Notes under the pieces: generated by a model | The model's database searches: none | What the model was told of the DNA's origin: nothing | Seen by the model: only the letters and a program-made list of their open reading frames with translations | Shown: in pieces, positions 6,897 to 64,000 of the stretch | Layout of the letters: each line of letters opens with the position of its first letter | How positions within the stretch are numbered: the stretch's first letter is position 1 | Origin: Paraspadella gotoi | Lineage: Eukaryota; Animalia; Chaetognatha | Assembly: GCA_051294375.1 (NCBI GenBank) | Contig: CM119265.1 | Location: 286,328-350,327, forward strand | Direction: 5' to 3' | DNA: 64,000 nucleotides | Program-made: the position numbers and the translations under genes

Positions 6897-7541
6897 TGTG
6901 GCTGGCTCCGAGATGCGTGACAACGTGACGGTGAGGCGTGACACACCGTGACTGGCTGCTAAAGGCGTGACTATATTGATGACAGTCTTAATTAGGCGCG
7001 CGATGCAGGGAAAAGCTTGTCACATGACTTCGATGACTTGTGTTTATCGATTCTTTGTTTTGAGACAAAAATTGAATTACTTGAAGTTGTTTTAAACATT
7101 GTTTGTTTATTTCAAGGTGATTTATTTATGTCGAATTGTTTTAAAATGATTTCTCAATGTCTTAATGTATTTATTACATTATAGAGATGAATAAAAATCG
7201 AGATTCATAATGTTAAGTTAGAACATTTGTATTCGAGATAAAATCAGACAGAAGGGATTTAAAACAGAGAAAACAAAAAGGAGGTAAACAATCAACTGTC
7301 AAATCATTTCTATGGCGGGAAGCCATCTTTTGTTTTAAGAAGATAATCATCTTGTTTTGGGAAAAACAAAAGGCATTCGAATTGAATTCAATCTTTAACT
7401 GAGAATCTAAGCAGTCGATTTTCAGGCCTACTGGTTGGTCTAGAGCTGTAGCTCGAAGCTTACCAGGCCTGAGCTCGATGGTTCGAGTCCCGGTGTGGAG
7501 GAATTATTTCTAATTAAGATTGATTCTCTCAGGTGGCCGCA
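6897..7541 (-). repeat. F2 5' LTR (~645 bp, TG...CA), followed by PBS at 6877-6894
   Basis: Reverse-complement match to 30718-31403. TGCGGCC start abuts telomeric repeat; ...GCCACA end is followed by CT-TGGTGAACCC. Confidence 0.92.
7425..7502 (+). ncRNA. tRNA-like Pol III cassette in F2 LTR (antisense to element)
   Basis: A-box-like TGGTCTAGAG and B-box GGTTCGAGTCC at tRNA-like spacing. Second copy at ~30760-30838 on minus strand. Confidence 0.65.
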
Positions 7542-7650
7542 ACCCTAACCCTAACCCTACCCTAACCCCCTAACCCTAACCCTAACCCCTAACCCCAAAC
7601 CCTAACCCTAACCCTAACCCTATAACCCTAACACTCACTCTACCTACCTC
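7542..7650. repeat. Telomeric repeat (CCCTAA)n
   Basis: Direct reading; lies between the F2 and F3 LTR starts. Confidence 0.95.
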
Positions 7651-8552
7651 CGTAGATCGAACCTTAGTATTTTCAGGCACCAGTTGATCCTCGACCCTTA
7701 ACGCCAAATTCGAATCGATGTTAATATCATTATTTTACTTTTATTTAATATTTAATAAGTTATTAATTATTTCAATTAATACATAAAAACGTCGCGACCC
7801 TGGCCTTGAACTCAGGAATTTCCTAATCCACTCCGTTTATGTCTTAGCCAGAGTCGCACTGAGACAGTTTTAACTCTGTTTCTCTCAAATCTCCCTTATA
7901 ATAATTTCCTTTGCAAATGAAATTGAATCCTTTTGTTTCGTTAAACAAAGGAACACTGGCAAATATCCAATAAGCAGCTGGATTCCCATTTTTATTATCT
8001 TTCTTGTTATTCCAGTAAAGTCTGGAAACCATTTTAATTCCATCAGAGGAAATTAACTCCTTATACATTCGTTATTAATTTCTCTTCCAATCGTTATTCT
8101 CTAATTACTGTTAATTAATTAACTTGATTGTTATTGTTTACATATAGCTATTTGAATTGCTTGATGGCAAAAGCATTGCGAATATCTAATGGCTTTGATT
8201 ATTTTATTCAGGTATTACTTTTAAATCAATTAACCAGCAAAGTTTGGTTTACTTCGTTTTACCTAGCACTAAAACTTTTGCCACGCGGCGTCAAACGCCA
8301 ACGTCAGCGTCAACGCACTTCCGGTTTAATAAAAACTCTTCTGAATCAAGCCAAAATCCAAGCCAAACGTCATCACAATCACGTCAGCGCCTCTAACGCC
8401 TCTTACCGACGCCAAAAGCCGACGCCAACGACGTGCGCCGCCAACTCATCGGCCACGCCCACTCTCTCACGATCGCTTCAATCTCTTCGTTACGTCATTC
8501 TGACGTTAGATGGCGATCTCTACGATCAAGTGAGTTACCTCTACGCATCTCA
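7651..8552 (+). repeat. F3 5' LTR (~900 bp)
   Basis: Direct repeat of 13646-14543, followed by PBS. Confidence 0.9.
7790..7868 (-). ncRNA. tRNA-like Pol III cassette in F3 LTR (antisense) with T5 terminator
   Basis: Minus strand TGGCTAAGAC...GAGTTCAAGGCC...TTTTT. Also at ~13790-13868. Confidence 0.55.
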
Positions 8553-8619
8553 ATTGGTGAACCGCGAACCGTCGACCGCTTTTCCAACCTTCTGAACAAG
8601 CCCATATCCCTAATTCACC

Positions 8620-11600
8620 ATGAGAGACCTCGAGAGACCCGCCAGGCCATCTCGACACGTCTCCAGTCGAACGCTCGCGCCTTCAACAGCATTTGGTCGA
8701 GGGCAGACCTTCTTCGCGAGAACCTCCCAACAAACGTCGTCCGCATAACCTAGCGACGGCCCACTTTCGATTTCCGCCGTCTATCGCCTGGAACAGAAGT
8801 TTTTCAGCGACGCTAACGGCGAGATGGCGTCAACGTCGACTGCAGGAGAGACGGAAGGCTTTACGCTCAGCTCTCCGCGACGGCTCTAGCGCGCTAGAGA
8901 AGAAGAAAAGCCGGACTATGCCCAACTATCGATCCCAAAAATATTGAGATCTGGCTTCGTCGAGTCGAAGCCGCCTATATTAGAGCGAACATAACCGCGA
9001 GGCGAAGGAGAAGTTCGCTGCTACCTCGAATCTAGATCGACGTTCAAACACTAATGCCAGCATTAACGCCTTCCTCTATGGGCGAGCAGCCGGAAAGCGC
9101 GCCTGGAACCAATCCGTCGGAATATCTCCAAAAAAGAAGTAATGGCACCACTCCTCGCAACAGCAAGCTGCTATATTACTCGACGGCTTTAGCCGCGATG
9201 GCCTTCGTCCCTTCGCAGCACCATGCGCCCGCCTCGAGGAAAAAATCAGAGCAGTGTCGAGCACGATTGAAGAAAGAGACAATCGTTAGAGGCTTACCAA
9301 TAGAATCGCGGCGCTCATTGGGAGGGGAAGATCGACGCCTATGTCGGCAATCTGGAATGGCCGACGAGGCGATAAATACTGTCGACGCTGAAGGTCGTTC
9401 CTCGCCTAGCCCGCGCCGGCGTCAACTATAAACGCCGCTACAACTCAATCATCTCGTCGACGAGCCAGACAGCGACGCGACACCGAGATGGAGGTCACGC
9501 CGCGGAGCTCAGCGCCGCGGACCCGGACGCACGGCGCCGAGCCGTGCAAACGGCAACTGGAGGGCGGCTGCCGCCAAACAGCTCGTCAAGTAGAATCTCG
9601 ACCTCAAACTCCAAGTTAAAAGAGCAAATTGTCGTATCACTTAAAGTTTGGCCGATTCTGCTTACAAATGTTGAAAGAGGATGCGCTCGTAGAGGCAGAC
9701 TTAAAAGGACAAGAAAGACGCCAAGATCGGGAAACGCAGTAGCGGGGCAACGCAAGGTTGAATGCGGTGCCTCGCTCGAGCATCCACGCCGATCACCCGA
9801 TTCCTTCCTTCTTGCACGTGGTCGACGCCAGTGACGGAACGCCATTGGTTGGTAGACGCGGAGCTCTGCTCTCGTCATACCTGCAACGACCGGAGCAAAG
9901 AGAAGCGGGGCCGTCCGGATTTTCAACTCCAGGCGGCAAACGGCCAGCCCCATTGCATGTTATGGAGTAATTACATAGGAGGAATAACGCTAGGCCCCAC
10001 GAATAATTTCCATTCGACGTCCTTATGCCGACGTAACTCAGAGTATTCTCGGAGCCGATTTCCCTGCTGCAGAATATTTCTATAGCTCAACCACCGCGAT
10101 GGACTGCTCCTCGACTTGAGGGATTAATCAACCATCCTTGCGCCGTCACTCCGTGGCTCCCGCACCGTCTCACGTCATTTCGTCGATCAGAAGGACGATA
10201 TTTTATTATCAAATTGCTTGATAAATACCGTCCCCTCTCCAAACCAAGCTTCGGCTTAAAGAGCCCAAACATGGGGTGCGTCATCACATCCCAACGGAGC
10301 GACGGCCGCCCCTGCCAAGCCCCGCGCTCGGACGTCCTTCCTCGCAGAAAAGCTGGCCCGTAGCGAAAGAGAACTGGAGAAAATGGCTGGGGCTAGGCAT
10401 CAGCGCAGAGGGCAAAGAGCTCGTGGTCGTACGCCGATCCTCTGCGTCCCAAATCTGATGGAGGATGGCGAGATGTGGAGATTTCCGTCGCCTTCACTCA
10501 AAACGGCGAGACCGACAAGTAATCCGGTCAAACTTCTCGGCTGACTTTAATGCGGAACTACTCCGCCGGAAAGAAAGTTTTCTCCAAGGTGATCTCTTAA
10601 AGGGGATTACCACAGATCCTGTAGCGGACGAGACGTCGCCAAGACAGCCGTAATAACACCTTTTCGGCCTCATTCGCTTCCTGCGGACGGCCCCGTTCGG
10701 CTCCTAAAAACGCGGACAGGAATTTCCCAAAGGATGATGGATGAGATACTTTGCGACATTCCACACACTTAAATGTGTATCCTCGACGATATCCTCGTCC
10801 GTAGTGAATGACGAGGAACAACACGTCCGACCTCGAGATGGTCTTCAAGGCCCTCTCAGACAACGGACTCGTTCGTCAATCGAAAGAAGTGTGTCCTCGG
10901 GAAAAGGTGCCTCGACATTCTTGGGATATCTCGTCGACGCCTCTGGCGTCAAGCCTCTGCTCAAAAGGTCGACGCGATCCGCGCCACAAAAACCCTCCGA
11001 CGACTGTGAAGGAGCTGCAGCGGTTTTTCTTGGGGATGGTTAATTATTACGTCGTTTTCTCCAAGGCGCTCACCAACGAGGCCGCAGCCCTTTACGACGC
11101 CTTGGCCGGTCAACCAAAGCAACTCGTCTGGACTCAAACTGCGCAATCGCCTTCCGACGCCGTTCAAGGAGGCGCTGGCCAACGCGCGCGTTAACTTTCG
11201 ACAATCCTCGAAACAAACGCCCCAGCTCTCTTTGACTCACTGAACGCTGGTCAGATTTTTCGCTGTAAGGAGCAGTTGCTCGAGCAACGGAGGCGCAGCG
11301 GGTGGGAGCCAACTCGCATTTTTTTTCGGACAAACTCGACGAGGGCCCAACGCCGTTGGCCTACGTTTTTTGATCGCGAGTTGTACGGCGCGTTTAGAGC
11401 CGTACGTTCACTTCCGTCACTGGTTAAGGGGCGCACGTTACCCTCTACACGGATTCAAGTCGCTAATTCATGCGCTCTCACAAACGATCAGAGCCTCAAA
11501 CTACACGACAAGACAGATTTTCAACTGTCATCATTTCTGAATTTACCACGGACATCCGTCATGTCCGTTTGGCAAGGCCACGTGGTAGCCCGAACGCCCT

Positions 11601-13450
11601 CTCCAGGCCCGAATCCCCGCTCATGCAGCCATCGCGCAATTCGACAGATCAATTTCCCGCAGGAAGAAGAGTCGAAAGATCTAGTCGGCACGTCAACGCG
11701 ATAGGACAAGAGGGTATAGACGCTGGAAGAAATGGCTCTCACCAGGCACTTGGGATCGAGACTACCAACGCCTGCGCCCACGACGCTCGCAAACAGGCTA
11801 AGCTTCAGAAAGATCAAACTCGGCTCTCAAAATCTTATCGTCGACGTCTCTAAACGGTCCCAGCAAGACCCTTCGTCCCCGAATCGTGGGGGCGTCGGAC
11901 GATCTTTGACGCTGTCCATGGCCTGGGCCATCCAGGCGTCGCACGAACTAGAAGAGAACAATTCTCTAAAATTCGTCTGGCCATCATTACGCGCACACGA
12001 CACGCTGGCGCGAGAGTGTGTTCCTGTCAGCAAGCAAGTGACACCGTCACGTGACACCGAACATTGGAGACTTCGAAGTTCCAGCTAAGAGGTTTCAGCA
12101 CATCAACCTCGACAATCACAGTAGATGCCTCAAATCAAACGACTATGGCTTTTACTAACCCTGAGTGGACCGCTTCACTAGATGGCCGAGCTGCTTTTGC
12201 CGAATGAAGGACATGTCCTCGCACCACCGGTAGTGACACCTTCGCCCACGATGGTAGCGACCTATCGGAATACCGTCAGATATTCACTCAGACCCGTGGC
12301 GCGCAATTAATACCTCCACATGGAACCAATCTCTCATTATGGGGAATACGCCACCATCAGAACGGCGGCATATCATCCGCAGGCAAACGGGCTCGTAGAG
12401 CGATTCCCATCGCCGCCTCAAAGAGGCGCGATCGCCCGCGAGTGGAGGAGCCTCAACCAGTGGTTCCTGGCGCCTACCATCAGCCTTACTTGCATAGAGG
12501 ACGAACTATCACAACCCGACATTGGCGCCTTCGCAGCAGAGCTCGTCTTTGGTGAAGGTTTAACAAGTCCCAAGGCCGATTTGTTTGCCCCACCACCTGA
12601 CGACGATCACACTCCAGGAGCAGCGCCGCGTCCTTCGGAACAACCTCCGCGTGGAGGTTGAGCGTCTACAACCTACAGAAACGTCAACGTCATCGCCGCT
12701 CACTAACGTCTACCTTTCCCAGAACCTCGCTCGTCGACGCCAACCCACGTGTTTATTCAGCGGCCAGGAGTTAAACGCCACTCACAGCGCCTTATCAAGG
12801 TCCTTATCGCGTCGTTGCGCGCGATAATTTAAACTTAAAGTGGAGAAATCCCAAGGGCGTGGCGTCGGAAACATCGGCCATAACATCGCGAATTAAAACC
12901 CACGACCAGTCTGGAGAAACGAAGACGGCGATGAGCGTGACTCTCAACCTCTCCTCCCCCTGTCTCACCGCATCCCACGGGCGCCGTACCGGTCCTCGCA
13001 CCAGACGCCCGGCGCCAACGTTCTCGGACGACTCGATCGTCCAACCTCGAACGTCTAACCAAGTCGCTTAAATCGATTTCGATCAACTTCACCAGTCGCG
13101 GAGGCCAGAGACGACAGCGACGACGACGAGGAGATCGCCTGGAGACAAGATTATCAGAGGAGAAGTCCACGCGGAAGTAGAGACGCCAGCGTCACCACCA
13201 GCGCCTCTACCAAAAGACCGACCAGACCGACCAAACGTCCCGATTTTTCAAAACCGAAAAAGAATACACTCCTTTCGACGTCAAGCGCCAACACTTTCCC
13301 GTTTGGCGCCCGCCTCCTTCACCGTTGATGGGCCAAGCGCTAGATGCAGCGCCACTTCCTGCCGTCCAACGTGAACGTCAGCCCGCCCACAACGGGGGGG
13401 GGCGGAACGATTCTCGAGGCCGACGCAGAAAATTTTTCTTTCAAAACTGT
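8620..13450 (+). pseudogene. F3 gag-pol, frameshift-ridden (decay or read error)
   Basis: Homologous to F1 gag and pol across many short ORFs; GGGAAAC at 9729-9735. Confidence 0.85.
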
Positions 13451-13645
13451 AAAATAGTTTAAACCGTCCAAACTATTAATTCAGCTACTTACCGTCACCT
13501 ATTAACAAACATTAACGTGAGTTCAAAAACCTGTTAATTATTATTAAAGCAATTAGTAGAATATTCCAACAATACTGGTTTTCTCTTCTTAACCCTGGCT
13601 TTGAGCCCAACCGTTCCACATTTTTGCAAATTTTGTCTGGGGGGA

Positions 13646-14543
13646 TGTAGAATCGAACCTTAGTATTTTCAGCACAGTTGAATCCTCGACGACCTAACGC
13701 CAATTTTCGGATCGATGTTTATCAATTATTTTTAACTTTTATTTATATTTAAAATAAGTTAATTAAATTATTTCAATTAATAATAAAAAACGTTCGCGAC
13801 CTGGCCTTGAACTCAGGAATTCTATCCACATCGTTATGTCTTTAGCCAGAAGTCGCCACTGAGACAGTTAACTTTTTTTCTCTCAAATCTCCCTTATAAT
13901 AATGTTCCTATTGCAACATGAATTGATCTTTTTGTTATGCGTTAAACAAAGGAACACTGCAAATATCCATAAGCAGCTGATTCATTTTTTATATCTTTCT
14001 TTGTTTATTCCAGTAAAGTCTGGAAACATTTTAATTCATCAGAGGAAATTAACTCCTTATACATTCGTTATTATTTCTCTTCCAATCGTTATTCGCCTAA
14101 TTACTGTTAATTATTATTGATTGTTTTGTTTACATATAGCTATTTGAATTGCTTGATGGCAAAAAGCACTTCGAATATCTATATGCTTTGATTATTTTAA
14201 TTAGGTATTACTTTTAAATCATTAACGCAAGCAAGTTGGTTTACTTCGTTTTTTACCTGAGCAATATAACTTTGCACGTAGTCGCGTCAACGCAACGTCA
14301 GCGTCAACGCCACTTCCGGTTTTAATAAAAACTCTTTGAATCAAGCCAAAATCAAGCCACGTCATAAACGAACTCACGTCAGCGGCCTCTAAACGCCATC
14401 TACGACGCCAATAGCGACGCCAACGACGCCGCCAACTTCATCGGCCACGCCACTCTCTCCCCGATCGGCTCAATCTCTTTCGTTGAACTCATTCTGACGT
14501 TAGTTGGCGATCCTCTACATCAAAGTGAGTTACCTCTACGCCA
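13646..14543 (+). repeat. F3 3' LTR
   Basis: Starts TGTAGA after the PPT and ends against the telomeric array. Confidence 0.9.
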
Positions 14544-14573
14544 CTAAACCCTAACCTAACCCTAACCCTAACC

Positions 14574-14614
<41 letters not shown>

Positions 14615-14658
14615 CCTAACCCTAACCCTAACCCTAACCCTAACCCTAACCCCTAACC

Positions 14659-14699
<41 letters not shown>

Positions 14700-14935
14700 C
14701 CTAACCCTAACCCTAACCCTAACCCTAACCCTAACCCTAACCCTAACCCCTAACCCTAACCCTAAACCCTAACCTAAACCTAACCTCCTAACCCTAACCC
14801 TAACCCTTAACCCTAACCCTAACCTCTAACCCTAACCCTAACCCTAACCCTCTAACCCTAACCCTAACCCTAACCCTAACCCTAACCCTAACCCTACCCT
14901 AAACCCTAACCCTAACCTAACCCGAACGCCTAACC
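14544..14935. repeat. Telomeric repeat (CCCTAA)n
   Basis: Direct reading. Confidence 0.97.
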
Positions 14936-14937
14936 CT

Positions 14938-17024
14938 CCTAAGATTAAGAGATATCCTGGCGGCCAATGTGGGACATGAGGCATGAGTGACAGAACCAAA
15001 TCATTCTCCTTTAAAGGTAACATCACCTGCTTGCTTCAAAATCAGCAGCCATCTTGTGTTAATGATCGATGACGACTAATAAAGGAACTATGTTAATCAA
15101 AGGTCATCGATGGAGGATCAGTATTACATAATAAAACCAGGTTTGGTCGTTTCAGATAAAATCGGCTTAACAGTAATAATGGTTAAGACGTCGGACTGTG
15201 GATCCTGGGGTCGCTGGTTCGAATCCAGAGAGGTGAGTGTTATTTTATAATTTATAATATTAATCAGGAGACTCGATATGATCTAAAATATCATTATCGA
15301 TAATTACTTAATAGATTAATATTGATTTGGTTCGATTAAATTAATTATCATAAATTTTGGCGCCAGGTACAAAGGCTAATACGCCCTAGATGTCGGTGCC
15401 CGTCACCCCTAGAAAAAATTAGGGGGAAAAAATTTTTCGCTTGATTTTATCTAAAAAATAAGCTTTGCCTTTGTTTCGAATTTTTGGTGTACTGAATTTA
15501 CAAGTAAAGTGAACACAAAAAATTAGAAAAAGTACACTTATGTGTTCAAAACGGAAAAAACGGTAATGAAATTGGATGTAAATTGTAAATACGTTGGAGT
15601 TAGTATTCATTACTAACAATTTTGATGATATATACTTAACGGTTGATTTCGGTGATTATTGGTGGGATTAATTAAATATCGAGGTGATTATGGGTGATTA
15701 ACGAGTTGAATAATCGATAGTAACGGTAAAATTTGGAGATTAAAAATTGGAAATTGGAAAGATTTCAAAGTAAAGGTTAAAGTTCGAATGAGACTTTAAA
15801 AGGGGATTGTTTTTTTTAAAAATGAACTGACGCCGTTCGATTTGAAATGCTGCAGTGTTTTCTCTTCGCGTGATTTGCTGAGCATGTGTGAAAGGAAGCG
15901 GCAAATATGATGGGGCGATTGAATTAATATCCGTTGGTTGACGCTTGATCTTCGCCTTTCGATAGAGAAGTTTTTCGGGGGTGGGTTTGGGGAAAAAATG
16001 TGGGGGGGAGGGGGGCGAGTAGGGGGAAGGTATAGGTTCGTTCGCCGGCCTCCGGATCGTTCCTCAGCTCGTTTATCTGAGTCTAAATCGACGTCGTTGG
16101 GATTATTAGCTTCTTTGGTTGTTTTGATTTTCCCGTTTGTTTACATTATTGTGTTTACCTTTTTTACTCGGTTTGTTTTAATTTTAGATTTAAGAGGGGG
16201 AAAATCGCTAGAGGGAAGAGGTTTTGGGTCGGGGGTGGAGGCGGGGGTGGTGGGGAAGAGGATTGGGGAGGGGGGGGGAGGAGGAGGAGGATGGAGGAGG
16301 AGGAGGAGGGGGAAGACGAGTTCTCCGCTATATTTTGATCGAAGGACCCGATTTGACGGAGTCGGAAAACGGGGTTCGAATTCCGGTCGCACCGGCCCGG
16401 GGGAAAGGCGGAGAGGGAGGTGGTGACGGCGTCTGGGCGGGCCTGGCGCCCGCCGCTGGCGCGGCGTCCTCGTCGTTTCGCCTCGTACGCTGGTTTAAAA
16501 CGCGAGATCGAACGTTTTCATTTCTCGCCCGGGATTTTTGAATTCTAAACGTTAGTTGATCGCGGCTGTGACGCGGTACGGTCCGAGGTAAGGCGTCGCG
16601 CGAGAGACGGCGCGCACGCCCCCTCGGCGCACAGTAGACGTGAGAATGGCGTGGCGCAGAGTTTTCCGGTAGATATGGAATTTGAGGGCGACGATGAGTA
16701 GAAGTTTGGGAACAGGGCTGGAAGGCGGCTATTTGAGGCGTAAGTTGGCGAGTGGTGCGAACTCGTTGATCGCGCTCGCTGGCGTCAAACTTCCGGTCTG
16801 GGTTTTTGAAAGCGAGGTCGCCAGGGAACGGCGATGGGTTTCACCGTTACCAGTTCAGCCGAGAGGCGCCGACGTCGGGTTTCAGAGTCGTTCTTGATGG
16901 CGAGTAAAGCGGCAGGGGAAGTCGCCATACCATTCTCCCTTTGTATCGGCGCCGAGAGCGATGCAGGGACTCCTTTAAAGCGACGGTGGAATCTCTCGAC
17001 GAGCCGTTCTTGTGGATGATAGGG
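14938..17024 (-). mobile_element. 3' part of Gypsy family F4: integrase remnant, 3' UTR and 3' LTR (~14938-15400)
   Basis: PYHPQ..LVERFHRR, GPYRV-like sequence and a poly-Pro tail on minus strand. 14938-15990 is repeated at 53883-54922. Confidence 0.82.
15161..15238 (+). ncRNA. tRNA-like cassette in F4 LTR (antisense), anticodon-loop-like CTGTGGA
   Basis: TGGTTAAGAC, GGA-CTGTGGA-TCC stem-loop, T-arm CTGG-TTCGAAT-CCAG, then TTTT. Confidence 0.65.
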
Positions 17025-17049: not shown

Positions 17050-17470
17050 CTGTTCATCAAGAGAGGTCTTACCGCCAAAAGAATTCAAACTGTTTTATTG
17101 ATTGTTTACTTTAGTAAACTGATTCTTTTCTCTGTCACTCTGTTCTGGATTCAAATCAATAAATGTTTTATCTCACAATTAAAACAATGTTTTTATTCAA
17201 CTCAAAATGTAACTAATACATTAACTCATGAGATATTGATTTTCTAATCCAAATCGAATCATTAATAAAATCGAATCAAATTACTTAATCTTCACTTCGA
17301 TAATGAAATTATTAATCTCACTCAATTAATCAAATTAATAATCACTTCGAATAATAACTGATTAATCTCTCGATCTCGATATTAAAATTCTGATTCTAAA
17401 AACAATCAAATAAACTCATCAATATGATTGTTCTTCATGTGATATGAATTCCCTGCACTGCGCGCCACTT
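17050..17470 (+). repeat. Partial LTR of a related family
   Basis: AT-rich LTR-like body with the TTCCCTGCA...GCGCGCC motif found near the 3' end of the F2 LTR. Confidence 0.5.
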
Positions 17471-17479
17471 CAAGCTGAA

Positions 17480-32043: not shown

Positions 32044-32074
<31 letters not shown>

Positions 32075-53218: not shown

Positions 53219-53256
<38 letters not shown>

Positions 53257-54922: not shown

Positions 54923-55303
54923 GGGGCGATTTATTTCTAAATAAATAAGTCGGACTGAACGCTATATCCCCCCATGATTAATTATATAGTCTTATAAATT
55001 CATCAAAAATAATGAAAAATAAAATAGTATGATGTCGGCCACTGTGTAAAGTATGTTGCTTTAAAATATGTACAAAATTATAGGCGTAATAAGGGCGAAA
55101 ATTAAAATTGACTTGATCGATCGATTGACTTTGACGGCGAAAAATTTCATATTCAAAATTCGAAAATCCAAAATTACAAAATTACAAAACCAAAATTGTT
55201 AAATATGTACTACTAATGGGAATAAGGGGTTGTTAACTGTCGGAGTCAATGCCGCGGATGCTGATGGAGTGAAGATGGATAAAGACTGGCTCCGACAGAT
55301 TAA

Positions 55304-58300
55304 CTATGATTTAAGGGAATTTTGTTTTTCTTTATCGTCGACGTTCTCGTTGTTGTTGTTGTTTTGTTCTTGTTGGCGAAGGATTAGTTCTTTCAAAACC
55401 ACTGCATAAGTTGGTTTGTTAAAGTTTTTGTTAGAGAAATCGTCGACTGAAGGCCTCGAGAATCTACACGTTGGCTCAATTCCCTTTTTCTCGAGTTGCT
55501 TGTTGTTGTTGTTGATTTTCTCTTTTTGCTTCGGTGATGAAGGCGTCTCACGTGGAGGCGCGGAGAATGGGGAAGCTGGAAGCAAAAAAGACGGGGAAGG
55601 GGGGAGTGGGTCGGGGGGAAGGTGGGGAAGATTTGAGGGGTCGGAGAAGTTGATCGGGGAAGGTGGAGGAGGAGGAGGAGGAGGAGAAAGAGGAGGAGGA
55701 GGAGGCGGAGACGCCGCGCGTTGGTTTCTTGATCGCGTTTGTCGATCCGTTGGCGCTGGTTGCCTCGTTCTGGCTCCTGGTGGTCGACCTGGTCTTCTCT
55801 CTTGGAGCAACCCTGGGTCGTCGATCTCCTGCTCGTCGTCGCTGATCCAAGCGGGTTTGATTCGTGCCACGTTTACCGTCTCCCTGCCGATACTCGGAAT
55901 GTCAACAGTTAGATTCAAACCATTTCTGTGAACAACACGGAATGGGCCTTCGTACGGAGGCATGAGCGGGGGTTGAACGCCTGCTCTTTGAATGAACACA
56001 TACTTAGCTGAGTTTAGATTCGCTGGGAGATGGATCGCGGGTTTTCGGTGGGCGGATGTTGGCTGGGATTGTAGCCGGGCTACTTCGATTCGAAGTTTTG
56101 AGAGGTGTTTTCTTCGCTGTTGATTCGTGATAGTGTCGTTGGCTTGGCAGTCGCTCAAGAGAGTTCCGGGGACGCCAATGCCCTCGCCGAAGACCAACTC
56201 TGCCGCTGAAGCTCCTACATCCTCTTTCACAGTTGTTCGAATCGCAAGTAAGGTCAAAGGCAGCTGCCAAAACCATTTTTCTCTTTCTTCTTTCGCCAGC
56301 GCTATTAGAGATTCTTTTAACCGCCGGTGAAATCTCTCCACCAGCCCATTCGCCTGCGGGTGGTACGATGTCGTTGTTTGGTGCTTAATGCCCCAACTTT
56401 TCGTTAACTGTTTCCACAAGGTCGATGTGAATTGGCTACCACGATCCGTTGTTATTACCGCTGGAGTTCCGAAAACGCTAATCCAGTTCAAGCTTAAAGC
56501 ATCCAGAATTGTCGGAGTCGTGGTATCGTGGATTGGGATGGCCGTTGGCCATCGAGAGAATCTATCCACAATTGTCAACAGGTGTGAATACCCGTTTGAT
56601 CTCGGCATTTTTACTAAGTCCAAGTTTATGTGCTGGAAGCGCTTAGCCGGGACTTTAAATTCGCCAATTTCAGGGATGACATGACGAGTGACTTTTGCCT
56701 TTTGACATTCGATGCAGTCGCGGGCCCACTTTGATACATCCTGTCGCATGCTTGTCCAAACGAATTTGGAGGCCATAGCTTTGCGCGTTGCCTCCACTCC
56801 CGGATGGCCTAAGCCATGGATGATGTCGAATACTCGGCGCCGCCATGCTGCTGGCACAAATGGGCGTGCCGGGCCGTTCGAAACGTCGGCCAAAAGGTCA
56901 TGTTCGCCTACGCGGATTTTTCGAAAGTTTAATCCCGATCTCGCGTCATCTGAGATTTTTTGAAAATCGCTGTCGAGTGATTGATCGATTGCCATTTGTT
57001 CGAAGTCAATATCGTAACTTGTAAGAGACGAAATGACGGCGTTTGCATCTTCTAAACGGCTGGGTTTGATGCCTAGTTCCTGTTTTTCGCCGTCTCGCTT
57101 TTCCTCGCTCGCGGTAGATGCCTTTTGGCAATGCTCGATGGCTGGGACTCGCGATTCTTCTTCCCCTGGCGTCGAAATCGAGTTCGCGATCGAGGTAGGT
57201 GTCTTCTGGCTGGTTTCGATGGCTGTTCTTCCAGTCTGGCTCGTTTTTGCGTCGCTAGGTGATGCTGTTGGAGTATTGTTTGGCCGGGACAAGGCATCTG
57301 CTACCACATTTGCCTTTCCCTTCAAATATCGAATGTCCGTGGTAAATTCTGCTATAACTGATAGCTGATAGGACTGTCGACATGTTTGTGGCTCTGATTT
57401 TTTCTTGATGGCGGTAACGAGGCTCTGGTGATCGGTATAAAGCGTAAATGCCCGGCCTTCCACCCAGTGGCGGAAATGCCGGACTGCGCGAAAGGCTCCG
57501 TATAATTCCCTATCGAAGGGCGGCCACAGCTTTTGGTTTTTGGCTAGTTTCGCGGAGAAGAACGCCAAGGGTTCCCAACCCTTGGGTCCTCTTTGTTCGA
57601 GCACTGCTCCTACAGCATGATCGGAGGCGTCTGTCGTTATACAGAGCTGAGCTCCGGTCCTCGGGTGATGAAGTAGCGCCGCGGAGATTAATCCCTCTTT
57701 GATGGCGTTGAAGGCTCTTTCACAGTCCTCCGTCCATGTTAGCGACTTGGGCTTACCGCTCAGGGCTTCGTACAGTGGCGAGCATCGATGAGCGACCTTG
57801 GGAATAAATCTTCGATAGTAGTTGATCATTCCCAAGAATCGCTGAAGTTCTTTGATCGATGTTGGGCGCGTGGTCTCCTTCAGAGTTCGAACTCGCTCTG
57901 GTAACGGCCTCACTCCGTTTTTGTCGACCAAAAAGCCCAAGAACTCCAGCGAGTCCTGGCCGAGCAGACATTTCTTGGTGTTTACCACCAAACCGTTCTC
58001 GTCTAACGCTTTGAAAACGCGTTGTAGATCCTCCATATGTTCTTGTGGTGATGATGACGCGACAAGAATGTCGTCTAAGTAGACGAATGTATGGGGTATG
58101 TCTCCCAAGATCTGGTCCATAAGGCGCTGAAAATCTTGGCCAGCGTTCTTGAGTCCAAATGGACATCGAGGGAAGACATAGAGCCCAAATGGTGTTATTA
58201 CCGCGGTTTTTTTTATATCATCCGGGTTCACTGGGATTTGATGATATCCCTTGAGTAAGTCTATCTTGGAGAAAATTGTTTTCCCCTCAAGCTGTGAGTT

Positions 58301-59098
58301 GAAGTCGGATAATAATTTGACCGGGTATCTGTCGTCAATCGTTTGCGCATTGAGGCGGCGGTAATCACCGCAACACCTCCATCCTCCATCCGGCTTGGCG
58401 ACCACGTGGAGGGGCGACGACCATTCAGATTTGCCTCTCTGGGCGACTCCTAGAGACACCATTTTCTCTAGTTCTCTCTTTGCTACCGCTAGCTTTTCGG
58501 CGTCTAAGCGGCGCGCTCTTGCTTGACACGGGCGTCCTTCCGTTGGGATTGAATGAGTAACCCCGTGTCTTGGTTCCTTGACCTCGAAAGTTGGCGTTGA
58601 GAGAGATGGGAATGAGTCGAGTAGCTTGTAATATTGTTCTCCTTTGCGATCTACAAAGCTAACGTGAGTAGTTGTCTCGTTCGAAGTTGACGCTGCTATT
58701 GTGGAGAGATCGCGGAGGTCGAGTAGAAGGCCGTCACGGTGATTGGGTGCGAGGTAATTCTCAGCTAGAAAGTCCGCTCCAAGGATAAATTGTTTTACAT
58801 CCGCTACCACGAATGTATAGTCGAACTTTCGATTGCCCAATTGGACCGTTCTATCGATGGTGCCATAACAATCTATTGCAGAGCCATTTGCTGCTTGAAG
58901 TTTCATCATGGTGTCTGGCCCTTTACTGCGTTGTTGTTGGGTCGGAGGAATGATTGAGAGTAAGGCACCTCCATCTACCAGCCACTTAACTCCATTCCCG
59001 GCGTCGCGAATATAAATTAGGTCGTTCGAGGCCGGTGAACGGGTTGAATCATGGGAGACGGCGGCGTTCACTTGCGCCGCCCCCCTTTGAAGTTTCCC
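55304..59098 (-). CDS. pol: F6 Pol polyprotein (PR-RT-RH-IN)
   Basis: 1277-aa open frame with all motifs; GGGAAAC at 59092-59098. Confidence 0.95.
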   Translation of the reverse strand, partial: GKLQRGAAQVNAAVSHDSTRSPASNDLIYIRDAGNGVKWLVDGGALLSIIPPTQQQRSKGPDTMMKLQAANGSAIDCYGTIDRTVQLGNRKFDYTFVVADVKQFILGADFLAENYLAPNHRDGLLLDLRDLSTIAASTSNETTTHVSFVDRKGEQYYKLLDSFPSLSTPTFEVKEPRHGVTHSIPTEGRPCQARARRLDAEKLAVAKRELEKMVSLGVAQRGKSEWSSPLHVVAKPDGGWRCCGDYRRLNAQTIDDRYPVKLLSDFNSQLEGKTIFSKIDLLKGYHQIPVNPDDIKKTAVITPFGLYVFPRCPFGLKNAGQDFQRLMDQILGDIPHTFVYLDDILVASSSPQEHMEDLQRVFKALDENGLVVNTKKCLLGQDSLEFLGFLVDKNGVRPLPERVRTLKETTRPTSIKELQRFLGMINYYRRFIPKVAHRCSPLYEALSGKPKSLTWTEDCERAFNAIKEGLISAALLHHPRTGAQLCITTDASDHAVGAVLEQRGPKGWEPLAFFSAKLAKNQKLWPPFDRELYGAFRAVRHFRHWVEGRAFTLYTDHQSLVTAIKKKSEPQTCRQSYQLSVIAEFTTDIRYLKGKANVVADALSRPNNTPTASPSDAKTSQTGRTAIETSQKTPTSIANSISTPGEEESRVPAIEHCQKASTASEEKRDGEKQELGIKPSRLEDANAVISSLTSYDIDFEQMAIDQSLDSDFQKISDDARSGLNFRKIRVGEHDLLADVSNGPARPFVPAAWRRRVFDIIHGLGHPGVEATRKAMASKFVWTSMRQDVSKWARDCIECQKAKVTRHVIPEIGEFKVPAKRFQHINLDLVKMPRSNGYSHLLTIVDRFSRWPTAIPIHDTTTPTILDALSLNWISVFGTPAVITTDRGSQFTSTLWKQLTKSWGIKHQTTTSYHPQANGLVERFHRRLKESLIALAKEEREKWFWQLPLTLLAIRTTVKEDVGASAAELVFGEGIGVPGTLLSDCQANDTITNQQRRKHLSKLRIEVARLQSQPTSAHRKPAIHLPANLNSAKYVFIQRAGVQPPLMPPYEGPFRVVHRNGLNLTVDIPSIGRETVNVARIKPAWISDDEQEIDDPGLLQERRPGRPPGARTRQPAPTDRQTRSRNQRAASPPPPPPLSPPPPPPPPSPINFSDPSNLPHLPPDPLPPSPSFLLPASPFSAPPRETPSSPKQKEKINNNNKQLEKKGIEPTCRFSRPSVDDFSNKNFNKPTYAVVLKELILRQQEQNNNNNENVDDKEKQNSLKS

Positions 59099-60144
59099 TC
59101 TTTTTTCTTCATTTGAGTCTCTTCGAATCGTGCACATCCCTGATCACACGACCATGCGTCGTCGCCGAAACGAATATGTTTCGCGCAGAGAGTCGTCAAT
59201 TTCGGCTTTGTTTTCGCTTTGGTAGCTGTCGTTTGGCGGCGTTTGCTGGCCGCGTTTTTCCGATGACGACGATCGACGGCGTTGATCGTTTCTTCTTCTT
59301 CAGACTCGGATTCTTCTCTCTCCTGCTGTTTCTGATTGACGTGGCTAATGAGAGATGTCGTTTGGCGGAGTTTTAAACTGCCGTCGCTCTCAAAGTGTCT
59401 GTCGGCGAGTTGACAGAGTTCTTTCGCCGTCAGCTCGTCGGCCTTTTCTTCCAATTGCCGGCGGATGTCGTTTGGCAGGTCTCGGAGTACTTTTTCTTTC
59501 CTGATATCATCGAGAGAGAGAGTCCTTGTTCTTTCTTCGAGTTGAGCTAATTTCCTTGATGGTTTGAGTCCCTCGAAGTCGAATGCATCGAGGATCACCG
59601 CGGCCTGTTGTCGCTTGGTCAAACCATACTCTCGCCTGAGATAGGCGATGAACTCGGTCCACGATTCCTCAGTGGCTTCGCCGAATAGATAAGTGTTTAT
59701 GTTGGCGTCCACGTTGATCCCAATTTTGGATTCTAAATGCGCGAATTTGTTCCGCGGCGTCGTGATGCCGGCGCGGATGTAAGCGGCTTCAATCCGCTTG
59801 ATCCATACTTCAATATTGCTCGTATCGAAGTCGGGTAGCTCAGGCTTACGATTCGATGCCCTTTCGAGTGCGCGAGTCGCCGCGGCGAGCGCGGCGCGGA
59901 GTTCTGTGTTCTCGTCGCGGAGATCGCGATCGGCGGCGCCGCTGGTCGCCATGACGGCGTCCTCGAAGTTTTCGGCGTCGCCCGGCGGGAATTCGAATTG
60001 AGTAGTCGCGCCGGGAATGATTGGAGAAGGTGAACGCCCGCGCCCGAATCCAAAAGGTAGTTGCAGTCTAGACGGATCTGCTAGCTGGGCCTCGGCGTCG
60101 CGTTGAGAGGAACGGAGTCGAGAGCGAATGTCTTGCCCGTTCAT
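59068..60144 (-). CDS. gag: F6 Gag (CHCC)
   Basis: 358 aa; knuckle CAKH...CDQGC. Confidence 0.92.
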   Translation of the reverse strand: MNGQDIRSRLRSSQRDAEAQLADPSRLQLPFGFGRGRSPSPIIPGATTQFEFPPGDAENFEDAVMATSGAADRDLRDENTELRAALAAATRALERASNRKPELPDFDTSNIEVWIKRIEAAYIRAGITTPRNKFAHLESKIGINVDANINTYLFGEATEESWTEFIAYLRREYGLTKRQQAAVILDAFDFEGLKPSRKLAQLEERTRTLSLDDIRKEKVLRDLPNDIRRQLEEKADELTAKELCQLADRHFESDGSLKLRQTTSLISHVNQKQQEREESESEEEETINAVDRRHRKNAASKRRQTTATKAKTKPKLTTLCAKHIRFGDDAWSCDQGCARFEETQMKKKEGNFKGGRRK

Positions 60145-60309
60145 CGATGACGTCGCCGGTGTCGAGTCGAATATAAGGGGTTTTGGGAATGAATGGGAAA
60201 AGAAGCGTGAGCAGATTGGGGGCTGCTTAGCTCAATTTCAATTCTCCCTCCCAATCTCACCTCAGAAAAGGTTTGTTTCCGCTGTTCCCCTTTCTTCAGA
60301 GAGATAACT

Positions 60310-60480
60310 GGTTTAGGGTTAGGGTTAGGGTTAGGGTTAGGGTTAGGGTTAGGGTTAGGGTTAGGGTTAGGGTTAGGGTTAGGGTTAGGGTTAGGGTTAG
60401 GGTTAGGGTTAGGGGTTAGGGGGTTAGGGTTAGGGTTAGGGTTAGGGTTAGGGTTAGGGTTAGGGTAGTTAGGGTTAGGG
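60310..60480. repeat. Telomeric repeat (TTAGGG)n
   Basis: Direct reading. Confidence 0.95.
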
Positions 60481-61139
60481 TGTGGCAAGTACAGAGTGCG
60501 TTCTAAGTAGACGCCACAGTTGACGAATGGACTTGGCAGCGTCAGCGTCACGTGACTAAAGCATTGGCGCCACGAATAAATGAGATGGCGTTCGATGTTG
60601 CAGGGAAAACGGGCGCGAGTTAAGATTCGTTTTAATCGTTTACAATTTAATGTTTCATGAGTTTAAGAGATTAAGTCGATGAGATTAATTCAGTTTAATT
60701 CGATGAGATTAATTGATGAGATTAATCGAGTAAAAACATTATTTGAGATTTCACAGAGTTTTTCTCCAATATATCAAAATGTATTTCTTACATTAAATAT
60801 TGAGAATTAAAAACGATTTGAGTCAGGAAACGAAAATAATGTATTCTTCATTGAAAGCAAAAAAGACTGAAAACAATCTGTTTTTCAGATTTGAAAGTAA
60901 CACCGTCGTCGAACAAAAGGTTAAGAAACAAACGCCATCTTGTTTTATCAGAGTCAATTGAAAACGGTTTGAAACAAAACAAAAGATGAATCGAGTTAAA
61001 ATCTTTTAATCAAGATTTGAGTTCAGATATTTTAAGCCGCCCGGATGGCAGTGGGCAAGAGCCAGGCGTCCCGGATTCTCGATACCGGGTTCGATTCCCG
61101 GAGCGGATTGATTATTTATAACAATAAATATCCTCTTCG
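60481..61139 (-). repeat. F7 LTR (start lost in gap)
   Basis: Ends ...GCCACA, carries the TTCCCTGCA motif and a tRNA-like cassette, same layout as F2/F5/F6. Confidence 0.8.
61036..61108 (+). ncRNA. tRNA-like Pol III cassette in F7 LTR (antisense)
   Basis: TGGCAGTGGG A-box-like; perfect T-arm CCGGG-TTCGATT-CCCGG. Confidence 0.7.
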
Positions 61140-61208
61140 NNNNNNNNNNNNNNNNNNNNNNNNNGTAGCTCCGGTCGGTCGGTCTTGTTCGTCGAAGTGC
61201 TCACCATG

Positions 61209-61902
61209 TGTGGCAGGTTGACTGAGTCTAGCCACAGCGTGACGAAGGGACTGGCAACTGAACGTCAGAGTCCTAAGACGTTGATGAGGATCATTACTAT
61301 GATCAGTAGCAGCGTTGCAGGGAAGGTTTGGCGTTGTAGAATTAATCTTTTAATTGATTATTTATTATCGATTACTTTCACAGATTAAAAAGTCGATTTA
61401 TTTCAGAGACTTGTTTCATCGATGTTGAATTGATTTATTTCATTCACTTCATTTAGTTTAATTCATCTTTCTTATAATGTACTTATTACATTTAGATGAT
61501 TAAATAAAAACAAGGTTTTGTTGAGTGAGGTAAAAGTATTATTTAATTCAAGATGATCGATTTTTAATATATCGAATTAAACAATTTAAGATCTTTGATT
61601 TTATCTTGACTGAGGTATCAAGACTGAAATTATTCAGTTAAAGATTCAAAAGGTAAACAAAATCTGTAACAAATATAAAAGGTTTTAACAGAGAGCCCTC
61701 TGTTGAAAACAGATTAATTCTAAGTAAAACAAAAGATTCGAATCTGTTTTAAAGTTATAAATAGGAGAATTCGAATTTGATTTTTCAGTTGTCTGGGTAG
61801 CCTCTGGCTGTAATTTCCAGACAGCGAGCGCTCAGGATCCAGGATCGAATCCTGGCGAGGGGCGATTTATTTCTAAATAAATAAGTCGGACTGAACGCTA
61901 TA
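61209..61902 (-). repeat. F6 5' LTR (TA...CA) with PBS at 61190-61206
   Basis: PBS TGGTGAGCACTTCGAC; start abuts the telomeric array. Confidence 0.9.
61791..61866 (+). ncRNA. tRNA-like Pol III cassette in F6 LTR (antisense)
   Basis: TAGCCTCTGG A-box-like; T-arm CCAGG-ATCGAAT-CCTGG. Confidence 0.6.
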
Positions 61903-62067
61903 ACCCTAACCCTAACCCTAAACCCTATAACCCTAACCCTAACCCTCTAACCCTAACCCTAACCCTAACTAACCCTATAACCCTAACCCTAACCCTAACC
62001 CCTAACCCCCTAACCCTAACCCTAACCCTAACCCTAACCCTAACCCTAACCCTAAACCCTAAACCAC
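61903..62067. repeat. Telomeric repeat (CCCTAA)n
   Basis: Direct reading. Confidence 0.95.
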
Positions 62068-64000
62068 CGTAGATTCGAACCCCGATATTATTTTAATCCA
62101 CAAGTGTGACACATGCCAGTTAATGGCCATCTCAGATCGATACAGACCTTTTTCTGAACTCATATTTATACTCGAATCGATTTTATAATAATAATAATAA
62201 TAATAAAAAGAGGCGATGGACTGGTCTCGAACTCGGGACCTTCGATCCACGAGCGGCGACTCTACCAGCATCGCCACTCAGTCCGATGACATTAGAATGT
62301 TAATCTAACTTATATAACTTGTATAACTCATTCGTTATATAATCAGATTGCTCTTTTATTGTTTAGAACAAATGATCATTTATATTTTATTTTAAACATA
62401 TGTTTTTACTTTGTTGTTTCCACAAGGTCTGGAAAATCTTTTAATCAGTTTAAACAAAATTATTCACATCGAAAAGACTCGTTAAAATTATTGTTAATCG
62501 GTTTTACTACTTCATTATTATTCATTTAATTGCATTTTATTGCTCATATAGATATTGCAATTACTAATTAGTAAATGGAATATCTATATGCTTTGATTAT
62601 TTTATTAAGGTTCCATTTTAATCAATAACCAAACAAAGTTGGTTAGTCTTTTTAAAAACATTCAATAAACAAACATCACGCCACGTGCGTCAACGCCAAC
62701 GTCAGCGTCACTTCCGGTTTGGGTTAAAAGGCTAATAACTCTATCAAATCCTACCTCTGGTCTTCCCGAGTCACGCCATCCAACTTCATTGACCTCTCGC
62801 GACGCCAACGGCCGCGCCAGAAGCGACGCCAACTCGAAGGCCACGCCCACTTTCGTTCGATCGACTCCATTCACTCGCCGATCGACTCATCATCAGGTGC
62901 GTCATCTCGTCAACAAAGTGAGTTGTTTACGCCATCTACATTGGTGATCCGCGACGTCGGACTCCCTCAACCTTCTGATAAATCAACTATATCAATGAGC
63001 GACTCTCGCGAGACGCGACAAGCCGCCCGACAACGCCAGCAAGCAAGCCCTAAACGTGCCCGCTGGATTCGGTCGTGGCCGAAACTCTCGTGAAAACTCG
63101 CCATCGAATCTCGTTAGGCGCCTCGCCGCGCCAATCTTCAACAACCCACCGGCGCAACGGAACCAGAAGTCTTTGCTGACGCCGAGGACAACGATACTGG
63201 CTAACGCCGCCGCCCTGGAGCGAAACGCGGAAGCTCTCCGTCGACCGCCCTCGCCACCGCACCTCGCCGCTCTAGAGAAGAAGAGGAAGCCTGACTTCCT
63301 CACTTCGATCCCAAAAACATCGACGTCTGGCCCGCCGAGTCGAAGCGGTTTATGTTCGATCCAATATTCGCGACGCTAAGGAGAAATTTGCTCACTTAGA
63401 GTCTAAGATGACGTCAATCTTAATCCGCGCGTCAACGCCTTTCTCTACGGCGAGCAAATCGGACAGACGCTGGAACGAGTTCGTCCTCTATCTTCAGAAA
63501 GAGTATGAGCTCCACTCCGCGCCAGCAGGCGGCCGTCTTACTCGATGGCTTTTGGCCGCGACGGCCTCAGACCATCGCAGCACCTCGCACGATTGGAGGA
63601 AAAGATAAAGGCTTAACCATCGATGATCTAAAGAAGGAACGGTCATTAGAGGACTCCCCATTGAAGTCCAACGCCTCCCTCGAGGGAAAAGCCGATTCGT
63701 TGACGGCGCAGAGTTGGCCGATGAGGCGACAAGTTCTTTGATCAAGACGGACGTCTACGACTGGCAGCTCCATCATCGACGATCAACGCGCCACTCTCAA
63801 ACAACTCGTCGACGACGACATAAGCGACAGCGACGACGAGGCAGAGATAAACGCTGTAGGGGGACAGCGCCGCGACCGCAGCCGCCCGTCAAACGGGAAC
63901 TGGAGGTCCAATGCAGCGAAGCCTCCCTCAAGCAGCGCCAGACCGCCAAGTGGCTCGTCAACGAATCCCCGCCCGGCCAATCAAAAGCTTAAGCAAATCT
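62068..64000 (+). mobile_element. Gypsy family F8 (F3-related): 5' LTR 62068-62940, PBS 62942-62956, frameshifted gag from 62995
   Basis: LTR 3' third is similar to the F3 LTR; ...CTACA-T-TGGTGATCC; gag pieces PAGFGRGR, KRKPDF, RQQAAVLLDG. Confidence 0.88.
62205..62290 (-). ncRNA. tRNA-like Pol III cassette in F8 LTR (antisense) with T5 terminator
   Basis: TGGCGATGCTGGTAGAG...CTCGTGGAT...GAGTTCGAGACC...TTTTT. Confidence 0.7.

What the first reader, a model, noticed from the sequence alone, without database searches (positions are those of the whole stretch)
6897..62940. A set of Gypsy (CsRn1-type) LTR retrotransposons that appear to target (TTAGGG)n telomeric repeats
Seen: six telomeric arrays, with 11 of 12 edges at LTR termini of seven families (7541, 7651, 14543, ~14938, 31403, 34628, 51011, 53883, 60481, 61902, 62068). 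F3 is complete with telomeric repeat on both sides. Known: telomere-specialised retroelements I know of are non-LTR or Penelope-like (TRAS/SART, HeT-A/TART/TAHRE, GilM/GilT, MoTeR, Athena), and Ty5 targets silent chromatin rather than the repeat. Inference: a diversified, recently active, integrase-based lineage specialised for telomeric repeats, possibly contributing to chromosome ends.
Basis: partly seen in the sequence, partly recalled or inferred. Interest (0 to 1): 0.92.

Follow-up and report, generated by a model that had tools for sequence, protein, structure and literature searches.

The report
Gypsy retrotransposons targeting telomeric TTAGGG repeats
Seven related retrovirus-like jumping genes of an unidentified animal sit with their ends directly in TTAGGG telomere-type repeats, mostly at the same position in the repeat, which likely makes them a rare integrase-using element that homes to telomeric DNA, a habit otherwise described for unrelated element types.

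Summary
There are six TTAGGG arrays, 11 of their 12 edges meet LTR ends of seven families, and one complete element has repeat on both sides. The elements have CsRn1-type Gypsy anatomy: CHCC gag, PR-RT-RH-IN, a GPY/F integrase and no chromodomain. Two copies have open gag and pol, and five window RTs form one clade. Four of 7 readable junctions, plus one contig from another sample, give the same 4-base overlap (GGGT/ACCC). The other three are one base short in noisy long-read sequence. This phase is the repeat's pseudo-symmetric site (TA-NNNN-TA), and insertions face both ways, as an integrase would place them. That excludes telomerase healing of LTR ends and differs from TRAS/SART. Relatives elsewhere show 0 of 5 telomeric flanks. 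Caveats: the window is a patchwork scaffold that may over-sample telomeric copies, one LTR has a non-telomeric flank, the host and terminal location are unknown, and nothing supports a role in building chromosome ends. I found no integrase-based LTR element targeting telomeric repeat in nine literature searches; the closest cases are TATE, Ty5 and Retand. Verdict: likely real, a new targeting variant of a known clade.

The parts
1..5606 (-). Element F1: start of 3' LTR (1-112, runs off the window), PPT, pol and gag broken by N10 gaps, PBS and a ~40-bp 5' LTR stub (from 5566) fused to a gag copy
6897..7541 (-). Family A 5' LTR (TGCGG...GCCACA), PBS on its inner side; outer junction reads CA|ACCC exactly
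7542..7650 (.). Telomeric array 1 (CCCTAA on +), noisy
7651..14546 (+).
14547..14937 (.). Telomeric array 2 (CCCTAA on +)
14938..17024 (-). Family C copy 1: likely 3' LTR (~14938-15382, inner boundary uncertain), 3' UTR and integrase tail
17050..20941 (+). Fragmented element I of the same clade (LTR piece, gag end, pol); no outward LTR end visible
29092..31403 (+). Family A pieces: LTR end plus PBS, integrase tail, PPT and 3' LTR (30718-31403); outer junction CA|GGT, one base short of GGGT
31404..34627 (.). Telomeric array 3, 3.2 kb (TTAGGG on +)
34628..40658 (-). Element D: 3' LTR 34628-35206 (junction CA|ACCC exact), open pol 35450-39445 (1331 aa), open gag 39355-40488, PBS, 42-bp 5' LTR stub from 40617
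49795..50447 (-). Family E LTR whose outward end has a NON-telomeric flank
50473..51011 (-). Second family D LTR; outer junction one base short of ACCC
51012..53882 (.). Telomeric array 4, 2.9 kb (CCCTAA on +)
53883..54922 (-). Family C copy 2 (LTR and 3' UTR); junction CA|GGGT, flank noisy beyond
54923..60312 (-). Element E: 42-bp 3' LTR stub, PPT, open pol 55304-59143 (1279 aa), open gag 59068-60231; leader cut at 60312 and joined to TTAGGG
60313..60480 (.). Telomeric array 5, 96% perfect hexamers (TTAGGG on +)
60481..61139 (-). Family G LTR; outer junction CA|CCC, one base short of ACCC
61165..61902 (-). Family E leader, PBS and 5' LTR (61209-61902, TA...CA ends); outer junction TA|ACCC exact
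61903..62067 (.). Telomeric array 6 (CCCTAA on +)
62068..64000 (+). Element H: 5' LTR 62068-62940, PBS, start of gag; closer to B than to D or E

Best explanation
These are CsRn1-type Gypsy LTR retrotransposons of one related group whose ends sit in (TTAGGG)n arrays, likely because their integrase inserts preferentially into that repeat, with a predicted 4-base staggered cut at its pseudo-symmetric site TA^GGGT-TA. Shown: the element anatomy, 11 of 12 outward LTR ends in repeat, both orientations, and one shared phase at most readable junctions. Inferred: (1) ordinary tRNA- and PPT-primed reverse transcription gives blunt cDNA; (2) the intasome is brought to telomeric chromatin, most likely through the conserved helix at the end of the integrase's disordered tail binding a telomere protein, as Ty5 uses Sir4; (3) within the array the two-fold symmetric intasome settles on the one phase where both strands carry TA just before the cut, which fixes the GGGT duplication and allows either orientation; (4) telomerase-renewed repeat is a harmless landing site that turns over, so only active copies persist and families keep diversifying. 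The elements would be lodgers in the arrays, not builders of the chromosome end.
For: Junction census 11 of 12. The first four flank bases are ACCC or GGGT at 4 of 7 readable window junctions (7541, 34628, 53883, 61902). The other 3 are one homopolymer base short, in sequence whose errors are almost all indels: A pair 53 gap events against 4 substitutions, E pair 13 against 0. A Logan contig of run X2 (sample S2, study P2) carries CCCTAACCC directly against the family D LTR end, the same phase in the opposite orientation to the window copy (table 7). P(any one phase at 5 or more of 8) is 0.028. GGGT is the only phase of six with 4 of 10 self-complementary positions. The G-rich strand is co-oriented with the element at 6 ends and the C-rich strand at 5. 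A 12-kb N-free stretch (5023-17024) runs LTR-repeat-element-repeat-LTR with both arrays in the same orientation. Five window RTs form one clade, SH-aLRT 85 in a quick tree. They share integrase features absent from 120 homologs: NGLN loop 0 of 120, PTY..VL tail helix 0 of 120. Outside relatives show 0 of 5 telomeric outward flanks (L006, L083, L084). The D interior differs from short-read contigs of three DNA runs at 0-1 letters per listed piece (table 8).
Against: The scaffold is a patchwork, and a gap-filler can chain copies through shared TTAGGG, so 11 of 12 may overstate the genome-wide rate. One family E LTR end (49795) is non-telomeric and lacks the TA-NNNN-TA context. Three of 7 readable junctions do not give the phase literally; by alignment score 31403 favours GGTT, 60481 favours AGGG, and 51011 ties. 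Four junctions are unreadable. The window-only phase test is not significant (P 0.11). No single element has both junctions readable, and in a 6-bp repeat the duplication length is known only modulo 6. Independent support is one junction of one family, and only 24 of 169 loose ends were displayed. The integrase model shows no recognisable DNA-binding or chromatin-reader domain, so the tether is a guess. Clade-specific residues are expected from shared ancestry alone. The host, its telomere motif and the terminal location are unknown.
Confidence: 0.66

Rival explanations
1. The integrase has only a short sequence preference (about TA-NNNN-TA) and inserts genome-wide. Telomeric arrays collect copies because they are dense in that motif and harmless, and this scaffold over-samples them.
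For: An ideal array offers 167 such sites per kb, against 4.4 per kb (0.48 for the 10-base form) in the rest of the window. One non-telomeric LTR end exists (49795). The scaffold is stitched from repeats.
Against: The four LTRs that continue directly from clean internal sequence (A 5', A 3', D 3', E 5') all end in repeat, and these should sample copies without regard to flank (inference). The one non-telomeric flank does not fit the motif. In X4 one contig runs gag-PBS-LTR-PPT without a break, weakly suggesting few well-covered unique flanks.
Confidence: 0.22
2. The targeting is real, but the arrays are interstitial or satellite-like TTAGGG tracts, so this is microsatellite targeting rather than telomere targeting. 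This is compatible with the best explanation's chemistry.
For: The arrays point both ways along the scaffold, no chromosome end is shown, and the host's telomere motif could not be determined.
Against: Two arrays are about 3 kb long and the cleanest is 96% perfect hexamer. TTAGGG is the ancestral animal telomere motif (PMC2678813). The cut leader at 60312 is followed by G-rich repeat in the orientation telomerase healing would give. Mixed orientation is explained by scaffold misjoins.
Confidence: 0.25
3. The junctions are assembly chimeras.
For: 18 N gaps and ~40-bp LTR stubs fused to unrelated DNA. An X1 contig leaves the window's path left of 40685.
Against: The telomeric junctions fall exactly on TG/TA...CA termini and mostly in one phase, whereas the visible misjoins fall mid-LTR. 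The same junction type occurs in short-read contigs of another sample.
Confidence: 0.05
4. Telomerase added repeats to broken or unintegrated LTR ends, or the elements carry the repeats as their own ends.
For: The 60312 edge looks like healing.
Against: Healing gives only G-rich sequence reading away from the end, yet 6 of 11 LTR flanks read C-rich, and element B has G away on one side and C away on the other. Inner LTR ends carry PBS or PPT, not repeat.
Confidence: 0.02

Closest known systems
CsRn1 clade of Ty3/Gypsy (CsRn1, PwRn1, AgCR; PMC2582038, passages read)
   Same: CHCC gag, PR-RT-RH-IN, GPY/F, no chromodomain or env, TGGTGA primer site, apparent 4-bp duplication, overlapping gag and pol frames.
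   Different: No target specificity appears in the passages read. CsRn1-like relatives fetched here have ordinary flanks (L083, L084). The window elements have 450-900 bp LTRs with a tRNA-like cassette and a long integrase tail.
TATE of Leishmania braziliensis (PMC2696322, passages read)
   Same: Retroelement inserted at one precise site inside telomeric GGGTTA repeats, in clusters.
   Different: TATE uses a phage-integrase-type (tyrosine) recombinase and a TT duplication. The window elements have a DDE integrase, true LTRs and a GGGT overlap.
TRAS/SART, MoTeR, FoTeR, Tx1-1_ACar (telomeric-repeat-specific non-LTR elements; passages of PMC12857005 and PMC10088271)
   Same: Several families share one telomeric repeat as target and interrupt the arrays.
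   Different: They are non-LTR, use an endonuclease and target-primed reverse transcription, and have fixed orientation. The window elements insert both ways.
Ty5 of Saccharomyces (PMC4700185, passages read)
   Same: LTR element reaching telomeric regions through an integrase tail that binds a host protein; this is the model for the inferred tether.
   Different: Copia order; targets Sir4 silent chromatin near telomeres and mating loci, not the repeat at a fixed phase.
Retand of Silene latifolia (PMC12477314, passages read)
   Same: Ty3/Gypsy element concentrated near chromosome ends.
   Different: A plant lineage described as subtelomeric; no insertion into the repeat appears in the passages read.
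Dada DNA transposons (PMC3706591, passages read)
   Same: DDE enzyme inserting at a fixed site in a multicopy target.
   Different: DNA transposon targeting small-RNA genes. That paper states that sequence-specific integration is seen almost exclusively in non-LTR elements.
Helenus TRIMs (PMC10886601, parts 1, 2 and 4 of 6 read)
   Same: tRNA-like sequence inside LTRs; animal families have 4-bp duplications and likely depend on Gypsy elements.
   Different: Helenus is short and non-autonomous. Here the cassette is in autonomous ~6-7 kb elements and is antisense.

Membership tests
Ty3/Gypsy LTR retrotransposon | LTRs, PBS, PPT and pol order PR-RT-RH-IN | tested here: met
   Pfam order in two open pols; PBS and PPT at inner LTR ends; integrase model matches PFV and Ty3 integrases.
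CsRn1 clade | Gag CX2HX9CX3C (CHCC) motif | tested here: met
   Present in 4 of 4 gag ends examined, one with X at an N gap; feature from PMC2582038.
CsRn1 clade | GPY/F motif, no chromodomain, no env | tested here: met
   YEGPY/F in 4 of 4 tails. The model shows an SH3-like CTD, then a disordered tail and one helix. No third large ORF.
CsRn1 clade | tRNA-Trp primer binding site | tested here: inconclusive
   TGGTGA follows the LTR at 7 places. That this matches tRNA-Trp is recalled; no host tRNA was available to compare.
CsRn1 clade | 4-bp target site duplication | tested here: inconclusive
   Left and right junctions of different copies overlap by GGGT, which is 4 modulo 6. No element has both ends readable.
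CsRn1 clade | RT groups with named CsRn1 members | tested here: inconclusive
   In a quick tree the window clade nests in a 100-support group of unnamed metagenome elements, beside Sparganum and Trichuris proteins. No named CsRn1 reference was in the tree.
TRAS/SART-type telomeric non-LTR elements | No LTRs, endonuclease, fixed orientation in the repeat | tested here: not met
   LTRs and integrase present; both orientations.
TATE | Tyrosine recombinase and TT duplication | tested here: not met
   rve DDE integrase; GGGT overlap.
Ty5 | Copia domain order (IN before RT) | tested here: not met
   IN follows RH.
Ty5 | Integrase tail binds a host chromatin protein | not testable with these tools
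   No host proteins available; only a candidate helix.
Helenus (TRIMp3) | Non-autonomous, under about 1.3 kb | tested here: not met
   Elements carry open gag and pol.
Helenus (TRIMp3) | tRNA-like sequence in the LTR | tested here: inconclusive
   8 of 12 B-box-like hits lie in LTRs, which make up 14% of the window (P 4e-5). Relaxed ARAGORN of 7 cassettes. Default ARAGORN and Rfam call none.

The most novel reading that the evidence does not exclude
A radiation of animal Gypsy elements has evolved a DDE integrase that inserts at one defined phosphodiester position of true telomeric (TTAGGG)n, through a shelterin-binding tail helix plus readout of the repeat's pseudo-dyad. Antisense tRNA-like A/B boxes in the LTRs act as barriers that keep the element transcribable in telomeric chromatin. 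This would be the first telomeric-repeat-specific LTR retrotransposon lineage that I could find.
Probability: 0.4. Interest if true: 0.9.

Novelty: new variant of a known kind. Interest (0 to 1): 0.78.

Why it matters
Fixed-site insertion into telomeric repeats is described for non-LTR elements and for the tyrosine-recombinase TATE, while LTR integrases are usually steered by host proteins and only loosely by sequence (PMC4700185, PMC3706591, passages). A Gypsy lineage hitting one phase of TTAGGG would show that the retroviral-type integrase reached the same niche independently. It would give a natural system for asking how an intasome combines tethering with sequence readout. Two naturally open pol genes and many close non-telomeric relatives make the determinant directly testable. 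It also warns that telomere-to-telomere assemblies of such hosts will meet LTR-interrupted arrays.

Tried and rejected
No whole genome was held, so no genome-wide junction count was possible. Reads could be laid on only one stretch, so families other than D have no independent junction check. No RNA holder was listed, which says nothing about expression. Viral contigs held no relative. Of 85 related loci, 1 has three or more telomeric units (L047, at the start of a distant 37% contig), but most close relatives' contigs stop before an outward flank, so only 5 flanks could be judged. Host identification failed: 8 candidate non-element ORFs had no credible Pfam hit, the atlas hit was below its recognition level, and the homolog search was empty. 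Earlier findings of this scan: none by words, place or sequence. Rfam's MIR2646 hit at 49370-49546 is far below its gathering score and is just an inverted repeat. The careful tree did not finish; the quick tree is cited, with 75 rows from about a third of the 120 homologs, and row B is half X. Rejected: telomerase healing of LTR ends, repeats as part of the element, old age of the copies (differences are indels), and a chromodomain or Myb domain in the integrase tail. Papers checked and found irrelevant from passages: PMC5381345, PMC7998251, PMC13535481 (calls TRAS1 'LTR' by slip), PMC5580475.
Full report
Observation. The window holds six telomeric arrays totalling 6,929 bp, or 10.8%. Self-comparison plus PBS and PPT scans define at least nine LTR families, which I letter A-I and F1. 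Eleven array edges abut LTR termini of seven families. The twelfth (60312) joins a cut leader of element E to TTAGGG. Counting from the elements' side, 12 outward LTR ends are visible: 11 are telomeric and one (49795) is not. The naive chance is 2.6e-10, an overstatement because the ends are not independent.

Quality of the sequence. There are 18 N gaps. Three LTRs are ~40-bp stubs fused to unrelated DNA, at 5566, 40617 and 54923, and a short-read contig of run X1 departs from the window left of 40685. LTR pairs differ almost only by indels. Gap events against substitutions are 86/26 for B, 53/4 for A, 20/4 for D, 13/0 for E and 52/13 for C. I infer a scaffold of clean collapsed contigs joined by poorly corrected long-read fill. 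The order of elements is therefore unreliable, the arrays are probably purer than they look, and the copies are young. Local LTR-repeat junctions inside the fill are likely read from single molecules; the stretch 5023-17024 is N-free and carries LTR A, repeat, complete element B, repeat and LTR C, with both arrays in one orientation.

What the elements are. Elements D and E have open gag and pol frames, 70% identical in pol, in the order PR-RT-RH-IN. Gag ends in CX2HX9CX3C in 4 of 4 copies, the integrase has GPY/F, and TGGTGA follows the LTR at seven places. These are the CsRn1 hallmarks listed in PMC2582038 (passages); the tRNA-Trp identity of the primer site is recalled, not tested. The 120 best pol homologs are nearly all unnamed ENA proteins, with RT about 70% identical at best. 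In a quick tree of 75 rows the five window RTs form one clade with SH-aLRT 85, B on a long branch with half its residues as X, inside a 100-support group of metagenome elements. No named CsRn1 reference was in the tree. The host could not be placed.

The junction phase. Reading away from the LTR, the first four bases are ACCC or GGGT at 7541, 34628, 53883 and 61902. At 31403, 51011 and 60481 they are one homopolymer base short, and at 7651, 14546, 14938 and 62068 they are unreadable. By alignment score 31403 prefers GGTT, 60481 prefers AGGG and 51011 ties. Independently, a Logan contig of run X2, from another sample and study than X1, carries CCCTAACCC directly against the D LTR terminus at 40617. 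This is the same phase in the opposite orientation to the window's D copy (24 of 169 loose ends were shown). Five of eight in one phase has P 0.028; the window alone, 4 of 7, has P 0.11. Left junctions ending in GGGT and right junctions starting with GGGT imply a duplication of 4 modulo 6. Of the six possible phases only GGGT is centred on a pseudo-dyad, TA-NNNN-TA, with 4 of 10 self-complementary positions against 0-2 for the others.

Orientation. The G-rich strand is co-oriented with the element at 6 ends and the C-rich strand at 5. Reading away from the LTR, 6 flanks are C-rich and 5 are G-rich. This is what symmetric concerted integration into a duplex array gives. It excludes telomerase healing of LTR ends, and contrasts with the fixed orientation of FoTeR and MoTeR (PMC12857005, passages).

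Relatives. Of 85 loci fetched, one distant contig has three telomeric units. Most stop before an outward flank. The five flanks that can be judged (L006 one, L083 two, L084 two) are non-telomeric, and L083 appears to have an ordinary 4-bp duplication. On present evidence the habit is confined to this host's clade.

Mechanism. The integrase model (mean pLDDT 71.6) shows N-terminal, catalytic and SH3-like domains matching foamy virus and Ty3 integrases, then about 135 disordered residues and one confident terminal helix at 557-576. That helix (PTY..VLKE) and an NGLN loop after GPY/F are kept in 4 of 4 window tails and in 0 of 120 homologs; shared ancestry alone could explain this. I infer tethering through the tail, by analogy with Ty5-Sir4 (PMC4700185, passages), with local phase set by the pseudo-dyad. 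The main rival is a short motif preference plus accumulation and sampling bias: arrays offer 167 such sites per kb against 4.4 elsewhere in the window. Against it, the four LTRs that continue from clean internal contigs all end in repeat, and the one non-telomeric flank lacks the motif. Nothing suggests that the elements extend chromosome ends. The 60312 junction has the polarity of telomerase healing, a single weak hint that the arrays are true telomeres.

A second feature. Eight of 12 B-box-like hits lie in LTRs, which are 14% of the window (P 4e-5). They are antisense and mostly near the LTR's 5' end, several with an A-box-like partner; the total count is only modestly above shuffles (1-8). 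Relaxed ARAGORN of 7 cassettes tRNA-like, while default ARAGORN and Rfam call none. Non-telomeric relative L006 has a similar cassette, so it predates the targeting. Helenus TRIMs are the described parallel (PMC10886601, parts 1, 2 and 4 read). A barrier role in telomeric chromatin is speculation.

Novelty. Nine searches and passages of thirteen papers gave no DDE-integrase LTR element inserting into telomeric repeat. The closest cases are TATE (precise site in GGGTTA, tyrosine recombinase), Ty5 and subtelomeric Retand. PMC3706591 states that sequence-specific integration is seen almost exclusively in non-LTR elements. The library lacks subscription journals and Repbase, and I read no supplements, so a prior report may exist.

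Verdict. Confidence in preferential, phase-specific integration into TTAGGG arrays is 0.66. It is a new variant of a known kind, interest 0.78.

Noticed in passing
window 7418-7500, 15163-15240, 35095-35160, 50898-50975, 61035-61112, 61790-61865, 62212-62287; L006 ~720-780: Antisense tRNA-like A/B-box cassette in the LTRs of autonomous elements, also in a non-telomeric relative.
   Followed up: partly
window 60280-60330: Element E's 5' leader is cut and joined directly to G-rich TTAGGG with a short GGTT overlap, like telomerase healing of a break; it could also be a misjoin.
   Followed up: partly
window 54923-54964 and 61859-61902: Family E LTRs begin TA rather than TG; family C may do the same.
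   Followed up: partly
window 21711-24664: A 34-bp satellite, about 85 copies, followed by two ~260-bp direct repeats (24679-24936, 25165-25414).
   Followed up: no
window 21237-21707: An ORF with an ATG at 21372 (112 aa) just before the satellite; no Pfam hit and no credible atlas hit.
   Followed up: partly
window 49370-49546: A near-perfect ~180-bp inverted repeat, MITE-like; the Rfam miRNA hit is far below threshold.
   Followed up: no
window 48560-48750: A 40-bp tandem repeat, about 4.8 copies.
   Followed up: no
window 14955-15345 and 53900-54320: Family C LTRs contain an inverted pair of CCTGGCGCCA-like motifs near their two ends.
   Followed up: no
L083 (5057-8976) and L084 (3301-7603): Complete CsRn1-like elements inside contigs of bacterial MAGs (Rubritalea, Ekhidna), and a homolog labelled SAR324 (P0211): likely animal contamination of prokaryotic bins.
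   Followed up: partly
window 39355-39445 and 59068-59143: Gag and pol overlap in different frames near a G-rich stretch, suggesting ribosomal frameshifting.
   Followed up: no
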